Part shown: in pieces, positions 1,821 to 25,037 of the stretch | Layout of the letters: each line of letters starts with the position of its first letter | Numbering within the stretch: the first letter of the stretch is position 1 | Assembly: GCA_944386135.1 (NCBI GenBank) | Contig: CALWZW010000001.1 | Location: 22,811-86,810, forward strand | DNA: 64,000 nucleotides | Reading direction: 5' to 3' | From: an uncultured Clostridia bacterium | GTDB lineage: Bacteria > Bacillota > Clostridia > TANB77 > CAG-508 | The notes under the pieces: model-generated | What the model was told of the DNA's origin: nothing | The model's database searches: none | The model's input: only the letters and a program-made list of their open reading frames with translations | Translations under genes and position numbers: made by a program

Positions 1821-4800
1821 CTAACATCCTGTTCTTGGCAATTTTTTTATTTCTTTTAACTTTATTTCTTTTTTATAGACTGTTGTAGTATGTTCATCTT
1901 CATCCCAAACAAGATATTGTTCATGTTCTCCTTCTATTCTTGTTTTATTAGTAAAGCTTTCATCAGCTTCCACTATGCTATTTACTTTAACAAATATGTA
2001 TGGATCTATAACTGATTCAAAACCAGTATCCACTGTTCCAAAATCAACTTTAAATTCTGTAATAATTTCCCCAGCTTCTAATTCTATATTAGAGAAATCA
2101 ATATAATTATTTACTTGCGTATTTAAATTTTCCGCTAATATTCTATAATCATTTAAATTAGTTTTATAATAAATATTGTAATTTAAGTTTTGATTATATG
2201 TTCCTGTTATTAATTTAGTAATTTTAGTATCATCATATGGTAAATAATCATACCATGTAAAGTTATCTAGCTCTACATTTCCAGTATTTTTGATATTAAA
2301 GTCATAGCGAATCTCTTCATTTGCTGTTGTTTGGATTATTCCTGTCTTTTCTATATCCACATTTGGTTTATCTGATTCATTAGTAATTTGTACATTTATT
2401 ACTTCTAAATTGTTATTTATTTCTGCTGTATATTCTTCTGTATTTAATTTATAGAATTTGCCTTGTTTTACTTCTTTTATTGTATATATTCCCTTTACAA
2501 GTTTATCAGTAGTTGCGATTCCTTCTTTGTTTGTAATAATTTTATCTACTATATTTCCATTTGAATCATAAATCTCGAATTCAACATTTTCAATCGGTGT
2601 TCCGGCTTTTTCTCCTGTTATTGGGTTATCATCTGCACTTACTTTTACAATCTGAATATATCCTTTAATTTTCTCATTTTCGAAAACTAAATTTGTGATT
2701 TGGTCTTCTGCTAGAGTTACCATTTTTATTTCTTCTGATAACACATACATTTCTTGGGTTGTTTTTTCACGAACATAATACTTTGTATCAATACAAGGTA
2801 GCATTGAAGATACCGCTTCTCCATTTGCATCTGTTATTATTTCTTCTATTACGTTCATCTTTTCATCAAGTATTTCAAATGTTACACCTTCTATTTTTAC
2901 TTCGTTTTTGTCAGCATCTACTTTTATAACTTTTATTTGTCCTTTTTTCTTTTCATTTTCTACTGTAATGTTTGTTATCTCATCTGGTTTTAGTATAATA
3001 TTGGTTATTGTTTCTCCATTTAGCTTATATTTATTATTCGATTTGACTTCTCTTATTGAATAAGAATGTGTTACTTTTAAATTATCCATAACTGCAATAC
3101 CATTTTCATTTGTCGCAACTATTCTTATTACTTCGTTTGTTGTCTCATCTATTACTTCAAATTCGGTATCTGGTATAAATATATTATTATCTTCTGAATC
3201 TTTTTTGATTATTTGAAGTTGAGCTGTTTTAGCTTCATTTTCAAAGACTATATCTGTTATTTCATTTGCTTTTAACTCTATCTCTATTATTTCATCTGAT
3301 AATTGATATAAATCATTGTTTTTACTTTCACGTAAATAGTAAATTTCATCTACTACTGGAAGTTCTGAGCTTATCGCCTCACCAGTCTCATCTGTAGTTA
3401 AGACTTCAATAATATTCATATCTTTATCTAAGATTTCAAACTCTACTCCAGGAATTAATACTTTATTATCTTCAGCATCTACTTTTATAACTCTTATTTG
3501 TCCTTTAATTTTCTCGTTTTCTATTTGTATGGTAGTTGCTTTATCTGCTTCAATTTTGATATTAGTTACGATATTTTCTTCTAGTTCATATTTATAATCT
3601 GTTTCTATCTCTTTGATAGAAAATGTATGATCTATTCTTAAATTATCTATAACTGCAATACCATTTTCATTTGTTGTAATAACTCCTATTACTTCATTTG
3701 TTGTCTCATCTATCACTTCAAATTTAGCATTTGGAATGTATATCTCGTTATCATCTTTGTCTACTTTTACTATTTGTAGGCTACCTCTCTTTATATCATT
3801 TTCAATAGTCAATTCATATTCAATGTCTGTTTCTATTTCTTTGATATCTTCTTCTGTCATATTTTCAGTGAAATTAACTTTGAACATTTCATTTTTTAGT
3901 ATATAAGAGTCGTTTGTTGCAACTTCTACTATAAAATATGTCTTATCTATTGGTAATAACGATGATTGAGCAAAACCGTTTTCATCTGTAATAATACTTT
4001 CTATGAAGTTTGCATCTTCATCAAATATGTAGAAAGTAACTCTCTCGACTTTTATATTATCATGCTCACTATCTTGTTTATTTATTGTTATAAATCCTCT
4101 TTTTGCTTGATTTTCTATTGTAATTTCAGTTGTTTCATTATGTTTTATTTCAAAAAATGCGTCATCTAGGTTTAATTTATAATATATACCGTGTTTCTAC
4201 TTCTTTTAAATACCACTCACCTGTCCATAAATTCTCTATATATATTTCTCCATTTTCATCGGTTGTATATGTTCCTATTAATTGTTCTTCTTTGTATGGA
4301 CTATCAACTTTGTTTGCATAAAGTTCAAATTTTATATTTTCAAGTGGGATAGTATTATCATCTGCATCTACTTTATGAACGAGTAATTTACCTTTTTTGT
4401 GCTCATTTGTAAGTTTTAATGTATAGATTGTATCTGTTTGTATATCATTAATTTCATCTTTCGTTAAATTTTCTGTAAAGTCAATTGTATAAGTATTTTC
4501 ATCTAATATATAATTTTCTAACGTATTTGTTTCTATTAGATAATATTTTTTATCTATTCTTAGTCTTGAACTTTCCGCAATGCCCTCTTCATTAGTTTTT
4601 ATAGTTTCGATAAAATTATTATCTTCATCATATATGTCAAATGTTATTCCTTCTAATGCATATTCTTGGAAATCTTTATCTGTTTTTATTACTTTTATAA
4701 TTCCTTTTTTCTTTTCATTTTCAATTGTTACTTTTGTATCTCCATATTGTTCATACCATTTTACTTCTATTTTAGTATCATCTGCTAAATAATACCATCT

Positions 4801-7230
4801 ATTTGTTGCTGTCTCTTTTAGCATATAATTGCCTGTGTTAAGTCCTTCTATATAAATTTCTCCATTTGCGTCAGTATAATATGTATCTATATATACTTTT
4901 ATTTCTCCATTTCCTACAAGATATAATTCAAATTCAACATTTCCAAGCTGTATTGTTTTATCATCCGCTGTTATCTTTTCTATGTATAAATTACCCTTTT
5001 TATGTTCATTTCCGAACTCTTAGAGTATATGTATAACCGTCAACTATTCCTTCTTCTATTAGGTTTACTGTAAATTCTTTTTCGTTAGTTATATATTCTT
5101 CTCTTGTTTTTAATTCTTTTACAACGTATTGTTCTTCTATTAAATCTAATTCTCCTGATTTGGCATAGCCATTTTCGTCGGTTATTATTTCTTGTAGCTT
5201 ATTTCCTTCTTTATCAAATATACCAAATGTTACTCCAGAAACTCCTAGTTCTGTTTTTTCTATGTCGTATTTGTATATTTCTATATATCCTGTTTTTCTC
5301 TCATTGCTTATAGTTGTTGTAGAATCTCCGATATTTATCTGCCCATTTTACTTCCACTGTCTTCTCATTTGTATTTACTCTATAAAACTCATTTGTAGAC
5401 TTTTCGACAATTTTATATGTACCAATATTTATATTGTTTAATCTTGCTATTCCTTGATTATTTGTCTTTATCGTTGCAATAAGATTATTTTTTGAATCAT
5501 ATATATCAAATACTGTATTTGACAACTTTATCGAATTATCTTTTGCGTCTACTTTATATATCACTAAATTTCCCTTCTTGTGCTCATTTCCGAACTCTTA
5601 AAGTGTATGTATAGCCATCAACTATTCCTTCTTCTGTCAAATTTACTTTCCAGGTATTTTCATTTAATAGATAATCTTCTTGAGTTGATATTTCTTTTAC
5701 TATATATTCCTTATCTAATGCAAGTTTAGAACTTTTGGCATATCCTTGAGAATTCGTTGTTAATGTTTCTATTAATTTATTATTTGAATCATATATTCCA
5801 AATTTTACATTTGATAGTTTTACAGATGTATCTTCCATATCATATTTGTATATTTCTATATATCCTGTTTTTTTGCTATTTGTTATTGTAACTTCTGTGT
5901 CTCCATATTCTTTTGCATATTTGACTGTTGCTGTAGTAGTTTCTACATCTATATTATAATAATCATTAGTCGATTTTTCGACAATTTTATATGTACCAAT
6001 TTTTATACTATTTAATCTTGCTATTCCTTGATTATCAGTTTTTATCGTATCAATAAAATTATTTTTTGAATCATATATATCAAATACTGTATTTGGTATT
6101 ACTATCGATTTATCATCTGCATCTACTTTATATATTACTAAATTTCCTTTTTTATATTCATTTGTCAATTCTATATATTTATCTTCACTAGTTATTGTTA
6201 CCTTAGTTTCTTTCGTATCTAACATATAATTATTATTTGCTTTTGTTTCTACTAAAATATAATTACCTATATTTATATCTTCAAATTTTGCAATTCCTTT
6301 TGAATTTGTTGTTGCTGTTGCTATTATATCTCCATTACCGTTTTTTAAAGCAAATGTAGTATTTGCTATATCAGCATTTGTCTCAGAATCTATTTTATGA
6401 ACTGTTAAATTTCCTGTACTAAGCCATTTTACCGATAAATTTGTTGTTGTACTTGGATCTTCTATGACCATTAATTTTCCTGCTAAATCTTGTTGTGATG
6501 AGTCAGTTGTTCTATATACTATTGGTTGATATTCATATTTACAATTTTCTATGTTTTCAGATGTCCATGTTCCATTTACCGTTAAAGGTGCTTTTAAATA
6601 AAAAGTATCTCCACCGTATATATTTACTTTTCCTGTACTTTCTGTTCCTCGTGTTTCATTTACAAGAGTCACTCCATTTTGTAAATTTAAAGTCAAATAA
6701 TATTCTGAACTTCCTGTAACAGTTGTACTTTCTGTTCTTTGTGTTTCATTTTCTAAATATGCTGTTAAGTTTTTATCTGAAAAATCAAGTACAATCTCTG
6801 GCATATCAACCGAATTTATATAATCTATAAAATCTTGTGCTACCCTATGAGTTTCTCCGATTATTAAAATAATCCAATGCAAGTGATGTTACTACAATTC
6901 CCATACTTTCACTCGTAAATCCACTCCATTGCTTATCTCCACCCCAGCCATAGTAAAGACATTTTGCAATATTTTCATTATTATAAATTTCTTGTGCAAC
7001 TGTTGTTCCGAGTTGGTGGAGTATCTTTATCATGGTCTATACAAAAAGCTCTGCTTCCGATTTACTGTAAAACTTCCGTACTGTAGAGCCTCCATAGGTT
7101 ACTTTACCGATTATATGTAACTGTATATGTTGTTGCTAATATTGTTAAATCACAAGCAACAGGAAGAATTGTTGATAATAATATTATTAACGCTAGCATT
7201 AAATTAGTCATTTTTATTATTTTTTTCATA
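1821..7230 (-). CDS. giant LPXTG-anchored surface adhesin (~1,800 aa): signal peptide, possible thioester-like N-domain, many Cna-B/isopeptide-type repeats. Spans nine in-frame CGG +1 sites.
   Basis: Start ATG 7230 with RBS aggagg. N-terminus MKKIIKMTNLMLALIILLST... Repeats KGxIxVxKVDAxDNxxxLxGxxFExxDxxxNxIxxLTTDENGxAxSxxL. C-terminus ...KKLPRTGC-stop. ORF-table fragments 1821..3887, 4177..4824, 5301..5564, 5584..6882 and 6845..7033 join when the C of each in-frame CGG is skipped. Confidence 0.8.
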
Positions 7231-7312
7231 TTCTTAAACCTCCTATTTCTCATTAAAAAATATCTCTAAGCTTTTCTTATTGCTTAGAGATATTTATATA
7301 TTTTATTATGTT

Positions 7313-24909: not shown

Positions 24910-24931
24910 GATAATCCTCCTTTTTGTAAAA

Positions 24932-24960
24932 TAAAAAAACACTCAAACCTGAGTGTTTTT
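24932..24960 (-). terminator. rho-independent terminator after tRNA-Lys
   Basis: aacactca-aacc-tgagtgtt stem followed by T-run on the minus strand. Confidence 0.55.
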
Positions 24961-25037
24961 TGGTGCGCCATAGAGGATTTGAACCTCCGACCATTTGATT
25001 AAGAGTCAACTGCTCTACCAACTGAGCTAATGGCGCA
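24961..25037 (-). tRNA. tRNA-Lys (anticodon CTT)
   Basis: Cloverleaf: acceptor tgcgcca/tggcgca+CCA, D-arm agctcagttggtagagc, anticodon loop ctCTTaa, T-arm ggaggttcaaatcctct. Confidence 0.85.

What the first reader, a model, noticed from the sequence alone, without database searches (positions are those of the whole stretch)
1821..25037. Integrated conjugative element (~23 kb) abutting the 3' end of tRNA-Lys(CTT); no integrase visible
Downstream of the tRNA 3' end, in order on the minus strand, lie: a RadC-like JAB protein, metK, a DUF3560 protein, small acidic proteins, a putative oriT, an RHH protein, a MOB relaxase, a coupling protein, VirB6-, VirB3- and VirB4-like proteins, an orphan methyltransferase, an M23 hydrolase, a sortase and a giant LPXTG adhesin. 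This is the gene content of a Gram-positive conjugative element inserted at a tRNA gene. The adjacent truncated tRNA-Lys-like 5' fragment (25109-25157) suggests past rearrangement at this site. No tyrosine or serine recombinase was seen between positions 1 and 25 kb, so the distal boundary (perhaps near the GC-rich 1376-1560 region, or beyond the window) and the integration enzyme remain unresolved.
Basis: partly seen in the sequence, partly recalled or inferred. Interest (0 to 1): 0.6.

Follow-up and report, generated by a model that had tools for sequence, protein, structure and literature searches.

The report
Conjugative element splitting a tRNA gene
A 33.7-kb, partly decayed conjugative element sits inside (not next to) a gut Clostridia bacterium's lysine-tRNA gene, apparently put there by a large serine recombinase encoded just outside the window, and it carries its own complete copy of that tRNA, probably as a substitute for the gene it cut in two.

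Summary
The boundaries and the integration mechanism are not as proposed.

- **Insertion site.** The "truncated tRNA-Lys fragment" (25109-25156) is the true left junction. It is nt 1-48 of the host tRNA-Lys(CTT).
- **Far end.** The missing 28 nt plus the terminator lie about 8.6 kb beyond the window's left edge, about 60 nt after the stop codon of a 560-aa TnpX-like large serine recombinase.
- **Size.** The element is 33,736 bp and has inverted attP-type arms around a GGTC core.
- **Empty sites.** Strains of the same species (flanks 98.5-99.7% identical) carry the intact 76-nt tRNA. The two flanks abut exactly at GGTC.
- **The full tRNA.** The complete tRNA-Lys(CTT) at 24961-25036 is cargo. 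It lies 72 nt inside the junction, downstream of the host's perfect-consensus promoter. It is identical to native tRNAs of other Clostridia.
- **Decay.** In this lineage TrbL/VirB6, the coupling protein and the adhesin carry fixed frameshifts.

I rate it a new variant of a known kind. In passing: unrelated proteins of this ICE family share a C-terminal EE(E/D)EFE tail.

The parts
25173..25201 (-). Host tRNA promoter, TTGACA-17-TATAAT (12 of 12 matches). It now points through the tRNA fragment into the element-borne tRNA.
   Evidence: The same sequence precedes the intact tRNA in empty-site strains.
25109..25156 (-). attL, host side: nt 1-48 of the host tRNA-Lys(CTT), ending in the GGTC core (25109-25112).
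   Evidence: Identical to nt 1-48 of the intact tRNA in same-species empty sites L038/L042/L044-46 and in 6 GTDB MAGs.
25088..25108 (-). attL, element side: attP-derived P' arm TAAGGCTGTAAATAAAGTCGG. It is an imperfect inverted repeat of the arm next to the recombinase gene.
   Evidence: 13 of 21 positions match, P about 0.002 in window sampling. The motif CCGACnTTAnnTACA occurs once in the window and once in L005.
24961..25036 (-). Element-borne complete tRNA-Lys(CTT), 72 nt inside attL. Proposed replacement for the split host gene.
   Evidence: ARAGORN; Rfam 72 bits. 84% identical to the host tRNA. 100% identical to native stand-alone tRNA-Lys genes in two other low-GC organisms.
24934..24961 (-). 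Intrinsic terminator after the element tRNA.
24332..24907 (-). RadC-like JAB protein, ending in ...EEDEFE.
   Evidence: PF04002, E 6.8e-30; tail.
23090..24208 (-). S-adenosylmethionine synthetase (MetK), conserved in the ICE family.
   Evidence: present in relatives L024 and L026-29.
22192..22908 (-). DUF3560 protein with an ...YEEFE tail.
   Evidence: PF12083, 1e-32. The tail is absent from 148 of 150 diverse DUF3560 representatives.
20718..22149 (-). Three small acidic proteins of 206, 75 and 190 aa. Two end in EFE and one in EYG.
   Evidence: phrog_1933 domain in the 75- and 190-aa proteins.
20590..20690 (-). oriT candidate: a near-invariant non-coding block with three hairpins.
   Evidence: Alignment with L024 and L026; DNA fold z = -5.26.
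20101..20562 (-). 153-aa protein overlapping the relaxase start. Possible relaxase accessory protein; the RHH assignment is not verified.
   Evidence: Conserved position in relatives; no family hit.
18876..20108 (-). MobP3-like relaxase.
   Evidence: NF041499, 137.5 bits (cut-off 150), E 7e-40. About 27% identical to MobP3 of Bacillus plasmids. More than 100 homologues at 67-79% identity in gut Clostridia.
18388..18867 (-). 159-aa ORF, a truncated homologue of a 272-aa protein found in relatives.
   Evidence: tblastn covers only residues 1-149 of 272.
16391..18258 (-). Type IV coupling protein in three ORFs (389, 69 and 166 aa). One break is shared with relatives; the other is specific to this lineage.
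16069..16419 (-). T4SS pilin-like membrane protein.
   Evidence: PF18895
15197..16035 (-). TrbL_4 (VirB6-like) pseudogene with two frameshifts. It is intact (281 aa) in relatives.
   Evidence: The exact 190-aa fragment is present on at least 22 contigs from many samples.
14257..15106 (-). Conserved 165-aa protein and a 106-aa PrgI/VirB3-like membrane protein.
   Evidence: tblastn to relatives; PrgI (weak) in L024.
11209..14318 (-). VirB4 module: TraC-like N-terminal ORF (13668-14318), N6/N4 DNA methylase (12968-13693) and P-loop ATPase (11209-13029). This three-ORF layout is conserved in the family.
10629..11234 (-). M23 peptidoglycan hydrolase.
   Evidence: PF01551
7838..8395 (-). Sortase.
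   Evidence: PF04203
1821..7033 (-). SpaA-repeat surface adhesin pseudogene. The repeats are spread over three frames and the ORF stops one residue after LPRTG.
   Evidence: The same pieces occur in other samples.
1..1820 (-). Start of the distal cargo: small ORFs and the 5' end of an ABC ATPase gene. Beyond the window it continues with an FtsX permease, a Spo0A-like regulator, HTH proteins, the 560-aa serine recombinase (L005 17694-19376), the P arm and attR (L005 19411-19463).
   Evidence: L005 and L006 are 99.98-100% identical to the window over 8-10.8 kb.

Best explanation
This is an integrative conjugative element of 33,736 bp. It has a MobP3-like relaxase, a Gram-positive-type T4SS, a sortase/adhesin module and an ABC-transporter cargo.

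**What the sequence shows**
- The element is inserted between nt 48 and 49 of the host tRNA-Lys(CTT) gene, at the junction of the variable loop and the T stem.
- Its two ends carry imperfect inverted attP-type arms around a 4-bp GGTC core.
- A 560-aa TnpX-like large serine recombinase gene ends about 60 nt from one junction.
- The element carries a complete tRNA-Lys(CTT) 72 nt inside the other junction, in the same orientation as the perfect-consensus host promoter and followed by its own terminator.
- Strains with and without the element coexist in the species.

**What is inferred**
- The recombinase exchanged attP and attB within GGTC, probably at the central GT. A serine recombinase leaves no long repeat, so it cannot rebuild the tRNA the way tyrosine-integrase islands do.
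- The host promoter transcribes the dead 5' fragment, the spacer and the element tRNA as one precursor, which RNase P and 3' processing resolve. The tRNA function is therefore replaced rather than reconstituted.
- The element tRNA differs from the host tRNA mainly around the crossover site. This probably keeps it from being a substrate for the recombinase.

**State of this copy**
VirB6/TrbL, the coupling protein and the adhesin are frameshifted in every copy seen. This copy is probably no longer self-transmissible, although the recombinase gene is intact.
For: - **attL.** Host nt 1-48 are followed by foreign DNA.
- **attR.** The recombinase stop codon is followed by the P arm, GGTC, tRNA nt 49-76 and the terminator. 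The same junction is present in L006.
- **Contiguity.** attL occurs in four samples. One contig (ERZ27336968:k87_460143) carries both junctions.
- **Same-species empty sites.** In L038, L042, L044, L045 and L046 the left flank (99.4-99.7% identical) ends exactly at GGTC and the right flank (98.5-99.7%) starts at the next base. They carry an intact 76-nt tRNA-Lys(CTT).
- **Related genomes.** The intact tRNA is also present in six related MAGs, two of them (L019, L020) syntenic on the left flank.
- **Recombinase.** All four domains (Resolvase, Recombinase, Zn_ribbon_recom, DUF4368) score above the Pfam cut-offs. The best solved relative is TnpX.
- **Independent second case.** The only close relative (P0002, 50% identity) is also followed by a tRNA 3' fragment that begins right after GGTC.
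- **att arms.** 13 of 21 positions are symmetric (P about 0.002). The arm motif occurs only at the two ends.
- **Element tRNA.** It scores 72 bits and is identical to native tRNAs elsewhere. Nine of its 12 differences from the host tRNA lie at nt 42-65.
- **Specific association.** The four relatives of the ICE examined, which sit at other sites (next to rumA, after hisS, and others), have no tRNA at their left end.
- **Promoter and terminator**.
- **Decay**.
Against: - No excised circle (attP junction) was found, although only IMG/VR could be scanned for it.
- No recombination directionality factor was identified.
- Expression and charging of the element tRNA are untested.
- I could not check whether the host has another tRNA-Lys(CTT) elsewhere. 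tRNA-Lys(UUU) is present at 34333-34408 and might cover AAG codons, so compensation may not be essential.
- The attR side is read from contigs of other samples (99.98-100% identical over the overlap), not from the window itself.
- I did not see the other end of the P0002 element, so whether a replacement tRNA is a trait of that recombinase lineage is unknown.
- My literature search was limited, and a precedent may exist.
Confidence: 0.85

Rival explanations
1. One reading: a classical tRNA-associated island, integrated by a tyrosine integrase at the 3' end of the full-length tRNA-Lys (24961-25036), with a direct repeat of the tRNA 3' end at the far boundary.
For: The genes do start directly downstream of a complete tRNA-Lys(CTT). 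tRNA-Lys(CTT) is a known ICE hotspot in streptococci (own knowledge). A different strain (L041) carries a small insert at this locus with a classical roughly 50-nt repeat of the tRNA 3' part.
Against: No repeat of the tRNA 3' end occurs in the window, even allowing 3 mismatches. No tyrosine recombinase domain was found in the ORFs scanned or among the precomputed Pfam hits. In empty-site strains the tRNA at this locus has a different sequence from the full tRNA in the window, and the flanks meet inside it.
Confidence: 0.02
2. Two elements in tandem rather than one: an integrase-less conjugative module (tRNA to adhesin) next to a separate island moved by the serine recombinase (ABC transporter, Spo0A-like regulator, recombinase).
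For: The adhesin ORF stops one residue after LPRTG, without a membrane anchor. This suggests a deletion or recombination scar near 1821. The distal 10 kb has cargo-like content. I could not see the distal ends of related ICEs.
Against: No internal att-like site exists; the arm motif occurs only at the two outer ends. Empty sites lack the entire 33.7 kb, and no half-occupied form was seen among at least 15 loci. One relative (L024) lies directly next to a rumA-like gene, the usual target of ICE serine integrases (PMC4701971), which fits a recombinase-borne ICE backbone.
Confidence: 0.08
3. The element-borne tRNA is incidental cargo or a relic of an earlier host, not a functional replacement. 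The host tolerates loss of tRNA-Lys(CTT) through tRNA-Lys(UUU) or another copy.
For: tRNA-Lys(UUU) is present nearby. AAG codons are the rarer lysine codons in a genome of about 26% GC (inference). No expression data exist.
Against: The tRNA has a perfect cloverleaf and the highest score of the four tRNAs in the window. It is identical to native genes elsewhere. It has the same anticodon as the gene destroyed. It sits 72 nt from the junction, co-oriented with the host promoter and followed by a terminator. It is intact in a lineage where several conjugation genes have decayed. The four related ICEs examined, which sit at non-tRNA sites, lack it.
Confidence: 0.12

Closest known systems
Firmicute ICEs with a single large serine integrase that insert inside a gene (streptococcal ICEs in rumA; C. 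difficile CTn5), as described in PMC4701971
   Same: The large serine recombinase sits at one end of the element and the att site is next to or within its gene. Only a very short core is shared (2-21 bp there, 4 bp here). The insertion lies inside the target gene. The conjugation module is Gram-positive-type. One relative of this ICE family lies next to a rumA-like gene.
   Different: The target here is a tRNA gene, cut at the junction of the variable loop and the T stem. The element also brings a complete second copy of the target gene. The described elements either disrupt the target or swap its 3' end.
Classical tRNA-targeting islands, ICEs and prophages with tyrosine integrases (for example ICEs at the 3' end of tRNA-Lys CTT in Streptococcus agalactiae; Williams 2002, own knowledge)
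   Same: They use a tRNA gene as the landing site, and tRNA function is preserved after integration.
   Different: Those elements carry only the 3' part of the tRNA within attP and rebuild the gene through a long identity segment, leaving a direct repeat. Here there is no repeat, the host gene stays split, and a separate full gene substitutes for it.
TnpX of Tn4451 and TndX of Tn5397 (clostridial large serine recombinases with DUF4368)
   Same: Same domain architecture. The TnpX catalytic domain is the best solved match (E 1e-21). The hosts are clostridial.
   Different: Apart from one variant (99%) and one homologue (50%), the other family members listed are at most 40% identical. TnpX/TndX elements insert at GA dinucleotides with low or different specificity (own knowledge), not in a tRNA.
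Gene-splitting 'regulated gene integrity' elements (skin in sigK, SPbeta in spsM)
   Same: A large serine recombinase element interrupts a host gene, and precise excision would restore it.
   Different: Those depend on programmed excision to restore the gene. Here a substitute gene makes excision unnecessary for tRNA function.

Membership tests
Integrative conjugative element (ICE) | Site-specific integration module with defined attL and attR, and an empty attB in related genomes | tested here: met
   Recombinase plus attL and attR. Same-species empty sites have flanks that abut exactly.
Integrative conjugative element (ICE) | Relaxase and oriT | tested here: met
   MobP3-like relaxase, E 7e-40. 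A conserved three-hairpin block lies upstream. The nick site was not identified.
Integrative conjugative element (ICE) | Complete mating-pair-formation system and coupling protein (intact VirB4, VirB6 and T4CP) | tested here: not met
   VirB4 is present. TrbL_4/VirB6 has two frameshifts and the T4CP has an extra frameshift compared with relatives. This copy is a degenerate ICE; relatives have an intact TrbL_4.
Integrative conjugative element (ICE) | Demonstrated excision and conjugative transfer | not testable with these tools
   There is only indirect evidence: presence/absence polymorphism within the species and a widespread family of relatives at other sites.
Large serine recombinase (integrase) elements | Resolvase catalytic domain plus Recombinase and zinc-ribbon domains | tested here: met
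   PF00239 80 bits, PF07508 62 bits, PF13408 49 bits and PF14287 59 bits, all above their cut-offs. A YCRLS motif with the putative nucleophile Ser20 is read from the sequence.
Large serine recombinase (integrase) elements | attP of about 50 bp with imperfect dyad symmetry around a short core, and no long direct repeats at the ends | tested here: met
   21-nt arms match at 13 of 21 positions (P about 0.002) around GGTC. Only 4 bp are shared by attL and attR. No tRNA repeat.
Large serine recombinase (integrase) elements | Recombination directionality factor for excision | not tested
   Several small ORFs lie upstream of the recombinase. None was assigned.
   No repeat. No Phage_integrase hit in any ORF scanned or among the precomputed Pfam hits.
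MobP3 relaxase family (NCBIfam NF041499) | Score at or above the curated cut-off (150 bits) | tested here: inconclusive
   137.5 bits, E 7e-40, covering profile positions 42-311 of 315. About 27% identical to annotated MobP3 proteins of Bacillus plasmids. It is a distant relative, just below the cut-off.
Functional bacterial tRNA-Lys(CTT) | Canonical cloverleaf, CTT anticodon and a score above the Rfam threshold | tested here: met
   ARAGORN; RF00005 72 bits against a threshold of 29. Identical to native genes in L036 and L037. Expression and aminoacylation are not testable here.

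The most novel reading that the evidence does not exclude
Two linked readings go beyond 'an ordinary ICE'.

1. A lineage of large serine recombinases has adopted the body of a tRNA gene as attB. It pays for the unavoidable gene disruption by carrying a complete tRNA that the recombinase does not recognise and that is expressed from the captured host promoter. 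This would be a third way, besides 3'-end reconstitution and programmed excision, for an element to neutralise its own insertion.

2. This ICE family appends a common C-terminal tag, EE(E/D)EFE-COOH, to otherwise unrelated proteins: RadC-like, DUF3560, DUF4313 and several orphans, but none of the T4SS structural proteins carrying domain hits. The most interesting reading is that the tag is a recognition signal that lets the Gram-positive T4SS or its coupling protein export establishment or anti-defence proteins into the recipient. No such sequence signal turned up for Gram-positive conjugation systems in the papers I searched.
Probability: 0.3. Interest if true: 0.8.

Novelty: new variant of a known kind. 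Interest (0 to 1): 0.55.

Why it matters
**Integration biology.** Serine integrases are usually described as gene disrupters that target protein-coding genes. tRNA targeting is usually linked to tyrosine integrases, which rebuild the gene. This element combines a serine integrase with a tRNA target and solves the disruption problem by carrying a whole substitute gene.

**Annotation.** A tRNA 5' fragment just upstream of a full tRNA is a usable signature.

**Applications.** The recombinase, with its deduced 46-bp attP and a conserved tRNA attB, is a candidate new integrase/att pair for genome engineering in low-GC Clostridia.

**The shared tail.** If the C-terminal EFE tail is an export tag, it gives a direct handle on protein transfer by Gram-positive conjugation systems.

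Tried and rejected
- **Repeat of the tRNA 3' end.**
- **Megablast of 7000-25000 against plasmids.** No match, so this is not a known plasmid.
- **Contig L003.** It looked like an empty site, but its tRNA 3' half has an acceptor-stem mismatch and is followed by 39% GC DNA. I rejected it as a probable chimeric low-coverage assembly.
- **Logan contigs L002 and L004.** They stop exactly at the junction. This is uninformative, because co-occurring relatives share the tRNA k-mers.
- **JGI metagenome scan for the species-specific attB.** Nothing. The empty sites were later found in ENA assemblies through the VanW protein look-up.
- **IMG/VR scans** for the recombinase, the relaxase and the attP junction. 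Nothing.
- **More distant recombinase relative P0006 (39% identity).** It sits in a polysaccharide deacetylase gene, not a tRNA.
- **Own promoter for the element tRNA.** No consensus match in the 72-nt spacer, so I propose read-through from the host promoter.
- **GC-rich 1376-1560 stretch.** No Rfam hit and fold z = -0.8. It is neither a boundary nor a structured RNA.
- **Methylase as an insertion into VirB4.** Rejected, because the TraC-like ORF / methylase / P-loop ORF layout is conserved in all relatives seen.
- **Literature.** Searches for a serine integrase targeting a tRNA with a replacement copy, and for an EFE-type signal, found no precedent. Mageeney et al. 2020 could not be retrieved.

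Full report
**1. What is in the window**

The window is the reverse complement of part of a 225.8-kb metagenome scaffold, ENA ERZ28614028 scaffold_72; L001 is identical to it. The organism is an uncultured Clostridia bacterium of about 26% GC.

ARAGORN and Rfam find a canonical tRNA-Lys(CTT) at 24961-25036 on the minus strand, scoring 72 bits.
- RadC-like JAB protein, MetK and DUF3560;
- a 410-aa MobP3-like relaxase (NF041499, 137.5 bits, cut-off 150);
- a T4SS coupling protein, a T4SS pilin-like protein and TrbL_4 (VirB6-like);
- a VirB4-type ATPase, an N6/N4 DNA methylase and an M23 hydrolase;
- a sortase and a SpaA-repeat adhesin.

The intergenic block at 20590-20690 is almost invariant in the two relatives aligned, whose relaxases are only about 75-78% identical to this one. 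It folds into three hairpins (z = -5.3). It is a good oriT candidate. None of the element ORFs I scanned inside the window has a recombinase domain.

**2.

The tRNA 3' end is not repeated anywhere in the window.

I followed a gene near the window's left edge into other assemblies of the same element. L005 and L006 are 99.98-100% identical to the window over 8-10.8 kb. They show that the element continues for a further 8.6 kb:
- an ABC ATPase, a secreted 168-aa protein and an 857-aa FtsX permease;
- a Spo0A-like response regulator and small HTH proteins;
- a 560-aa large serine recombinase with Resolvase, Recombinase, Zn-ribbon and DUF4368 domains, all above their Pfam cut-offs. Its best solved relative is TnpX.

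About 60 nt after its stop codon comes the sequence ...CCGACCTTAAATACAAGCAGG-GGTC-CGCGGTTCGATCCCGCGATGGCGCACCA, followed by a terminator. That is the T arm and acceptor 3' strand of a tRNA.

The "truncated tRNA-like fragment" in the window (25156 down to 25109) is GCGCTATT...CACAAGGTC. These are nt 1-48 of a tRNA-Lys(CTT), and unrelated DNA follows (TAAGGCTGTAAATAAAGTCGG...). Joining the two pieces gives a perfect 76-nt tRNA-Lys(CTT).

**3. Proof by empty sites**

The joined sequence exists intact in six related MAGs. Two of them (L019, L020) are syntenic on the left flank, with VanW 77-85% and the 203-aa protein 82-92% identical.

More decisive are strains of the same species, which encode an identical VanW protein. 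L038, L042, L044, L045 and L046 lack the element. Their left flank (99.4-99.7% identical over up to 8.3 kb) ends exactly at the C of GGTC. Their right flank, the terminator and the ECF sigma/DUF4179 gene (98.5-99.7% identical), starts at the next base. ARAGORN calls an intact tRNA-Lys(CTT) there.

The attL junction is present in four samples and attR in two. One 51.6-kb contig carries both. The element is therefore a precise 33,736-bp insertion between nt 48 and 49 of the tRNA gene, with a 4-bp ambiguity (GGTC). It is polymorphic within the species.

**4. Mechanism**

The two ends carry 21-nt arms that are imperfect inverted repeats, matching at 13 of 21 positions (P about 0.002 by sampling the window). 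Their shared motif, CCGACnTTAnnTACA, occurs only at the two ends. This is what an attP of a large serine recombinase looks like. Only 4 bp are shared between attL and attR.

The only close homologue of the recombinase among 5.8 billion proteins, besides a 99% variant, is P0002 (50% identity). It is also followed by a tRNA 3' fragment that starts right after GGTC. More distant homologues sit in other genes.

I infer that this recombinase lineage uses the variable-loop/T-stem region of a tRNA as attB and exchanges strands within GGTC, probably at the central GT.

**5. The full-length tRNA is cargo**

A serine recombinase cannot rebuild the gene it cuts. The element carries a complete tRNA-Lys(CTT) 72 nt inside attL. 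It has the same orientation as the host's perfect TTGACA-17-TATAAT promoter and is followed by its own terminator.

- It is only 84% identical to the host tRNA. Nine of the 12 differences fall at nt 42-65, around the crossover site, and the T-stem changes are compensatory.
- It is 100% identical to stand-alone native tRNA-Lys genes of two other low-GC organisms.
- The four relatives of the ICE that I examined sit at other sites (next to a rumA-like gene, after hisS, and elsewhere). They have the same gene order but no tRNA at that end.

I conclude, as an inference, that the tRNA replaces the gene that integration destroys, is expressed by read-through from the captured host promoter, and is diverged enough not to be a substrate for the recombinase. 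Expression and charging are untested. I could not check whether another tRNA-Lys(CTT) exists elsewhere in the genome.

**6. State of this copy**

I compared this copy with intact relatives by tblastn:
- TrbL_4 has two frameshifts; it is 281 aa and intact in relatives.
- The C-terminal part of the coupling protein has an extra frameshift.
- The protein downstream of the relaxase is truncated.

The adhesin's SpaA repeats run from 6882 to 1824 in three different frames. The ORF stops one residue after LPRTG, so it has no membrane anchor.

The exact truncated TrbL_4 fragment occurs on at least 22 contigs from many samples and several assemblers, always at this site. The lesions are therefore real and fixed, not assembly errors. 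This lineage carries a decaying, probably non-self-transmissible ICE with an intact recombinase.

**7. Comparison with known systems**

The closest known systems are Firmicute ICEs whose single serine integrase inserts inside rumA or other protein-coding genes (PMC4701971), and TnpX/TndX elements. Classical tRNA islands use tyrosine integrases and leave a repeat of the tRNA 3' part. A small unrelated insert of that classical type is present at this same tRNA in strain L041.

The papers I could search gave no example of a serine integrase that targets a tRNA body together with a complete replacement gene. The search was limited. I rate this a new variant of a known kind.

**8. Seen in passing**

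Six of 47 sense-strand ORFs of the element end in EE(E/D)EFE or EEYG. None of 118 ORFs in the rest of the window does, and none of 53 antisense ORFs. The tail is also present on four to six proteins in each relative, including proteins of other families: DUF4313, a 272-aa protein and a 128-aa protein. Among 150 diverse DUF3560 representatives, only the two belonging to this ICE family have it. The tail is therefore an element-specific appendage. It may be a recognition or export tag, given that conjugative T4SSs are known to transfer plasmid-encoded proteins (PMC8406263, PMC11288057). This is speculative.

Noticed in passing
window 24332-24907, 22192-22908, 21529-22149, 21305-21532, 20718-21290, 9273-9710; also L024, L026, L028, L029: Unrelated ICE proteins (RadC-like, DUF3560, several orphans; DUF4313 and others in relatives) all end in an acidic EE(E/D)EFE-COOH tail, with one EEYG variant. 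The count is 6 of 47 sense ORFs in the element, against 0 of 118 in the rest of the window. Diverse DUF3560 homologues outside this ICE family lack the tail. It may be a recognition or export tag.
   Followed up: partly
window 17089-17120 (overlap of the 389-aa and 69-aa coupling-protein ORFs); L026 14102-14133: The coupling protein is split at the same position, with the same 32-nt overlap and frame change, in this element and in relatives whose relaxases are about 75-78% identical. This break is a family trait (a two-gene T4CP or a programmed frameshift), not decay. Relatives show a further break between the membrane part and the NTPase part that the window lacks.
   Followed up: partly
window 11209-14318: VirB4 is encoded as a TraC-like N-terminal ORF and a P-loop ORF, with a DNA methylase gene between them that overlaps both. 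The layout is conserved in all relatives seen.
   Followed up: partly
L005 14853-15611 (about 4.0-4.8 kb beyond the window's left edge): The element carries a Spo0A-like response regulator (Response_reg plus Spo0A_C), the only gene found on the opposite strand, next to an ABC/FtsX transporter and a secreted 168-aa protein.
   Followed up: no
L041 8341-9232 (same species, a different strain): The same tRNA-Lys(CTT) locus carries an unrelated insert of about 0.9 kb: a 179-aa ORF flanked by a classical repeat of about 50 nt of the tRNA 3' part, with the GGTC core mutated to GACC in the repeat. The locus is a hotspot used in two different ways.
   Followed up: partly
window 28813-29554: A host short-chain dehydrogenase gene is split into two overlapping ORFs of 167 and 95 aa. 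The same split is seen in all other samples, so it is a fixed frameshift in the host lineage.
   Followed up: no
L003 (ENA ERZ24773307, 2.1 kb contig): Probable chimeric assembly. The host tRNA 5' half is joined at GGTC to the 3' half of another organism's tRNA-Lys and to 39% GC DNA. Such chimeras at conserved tRNA k-mers can mimic empty sites.
   Followed up: yes
window 1821-1845: The adhesin ORF ends ...KKLPRTGC-stop, with no hydrophobic anchor or charged tail, and a hairpin follows directly. This may be a deletion scar separating the conjugation and adhesin module from the distal cargo.
   Followed up: no
window 48001-49000: A 1-kb stretch of only 15% GC, far below the window average of about 26-27%.
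   Followed up: no
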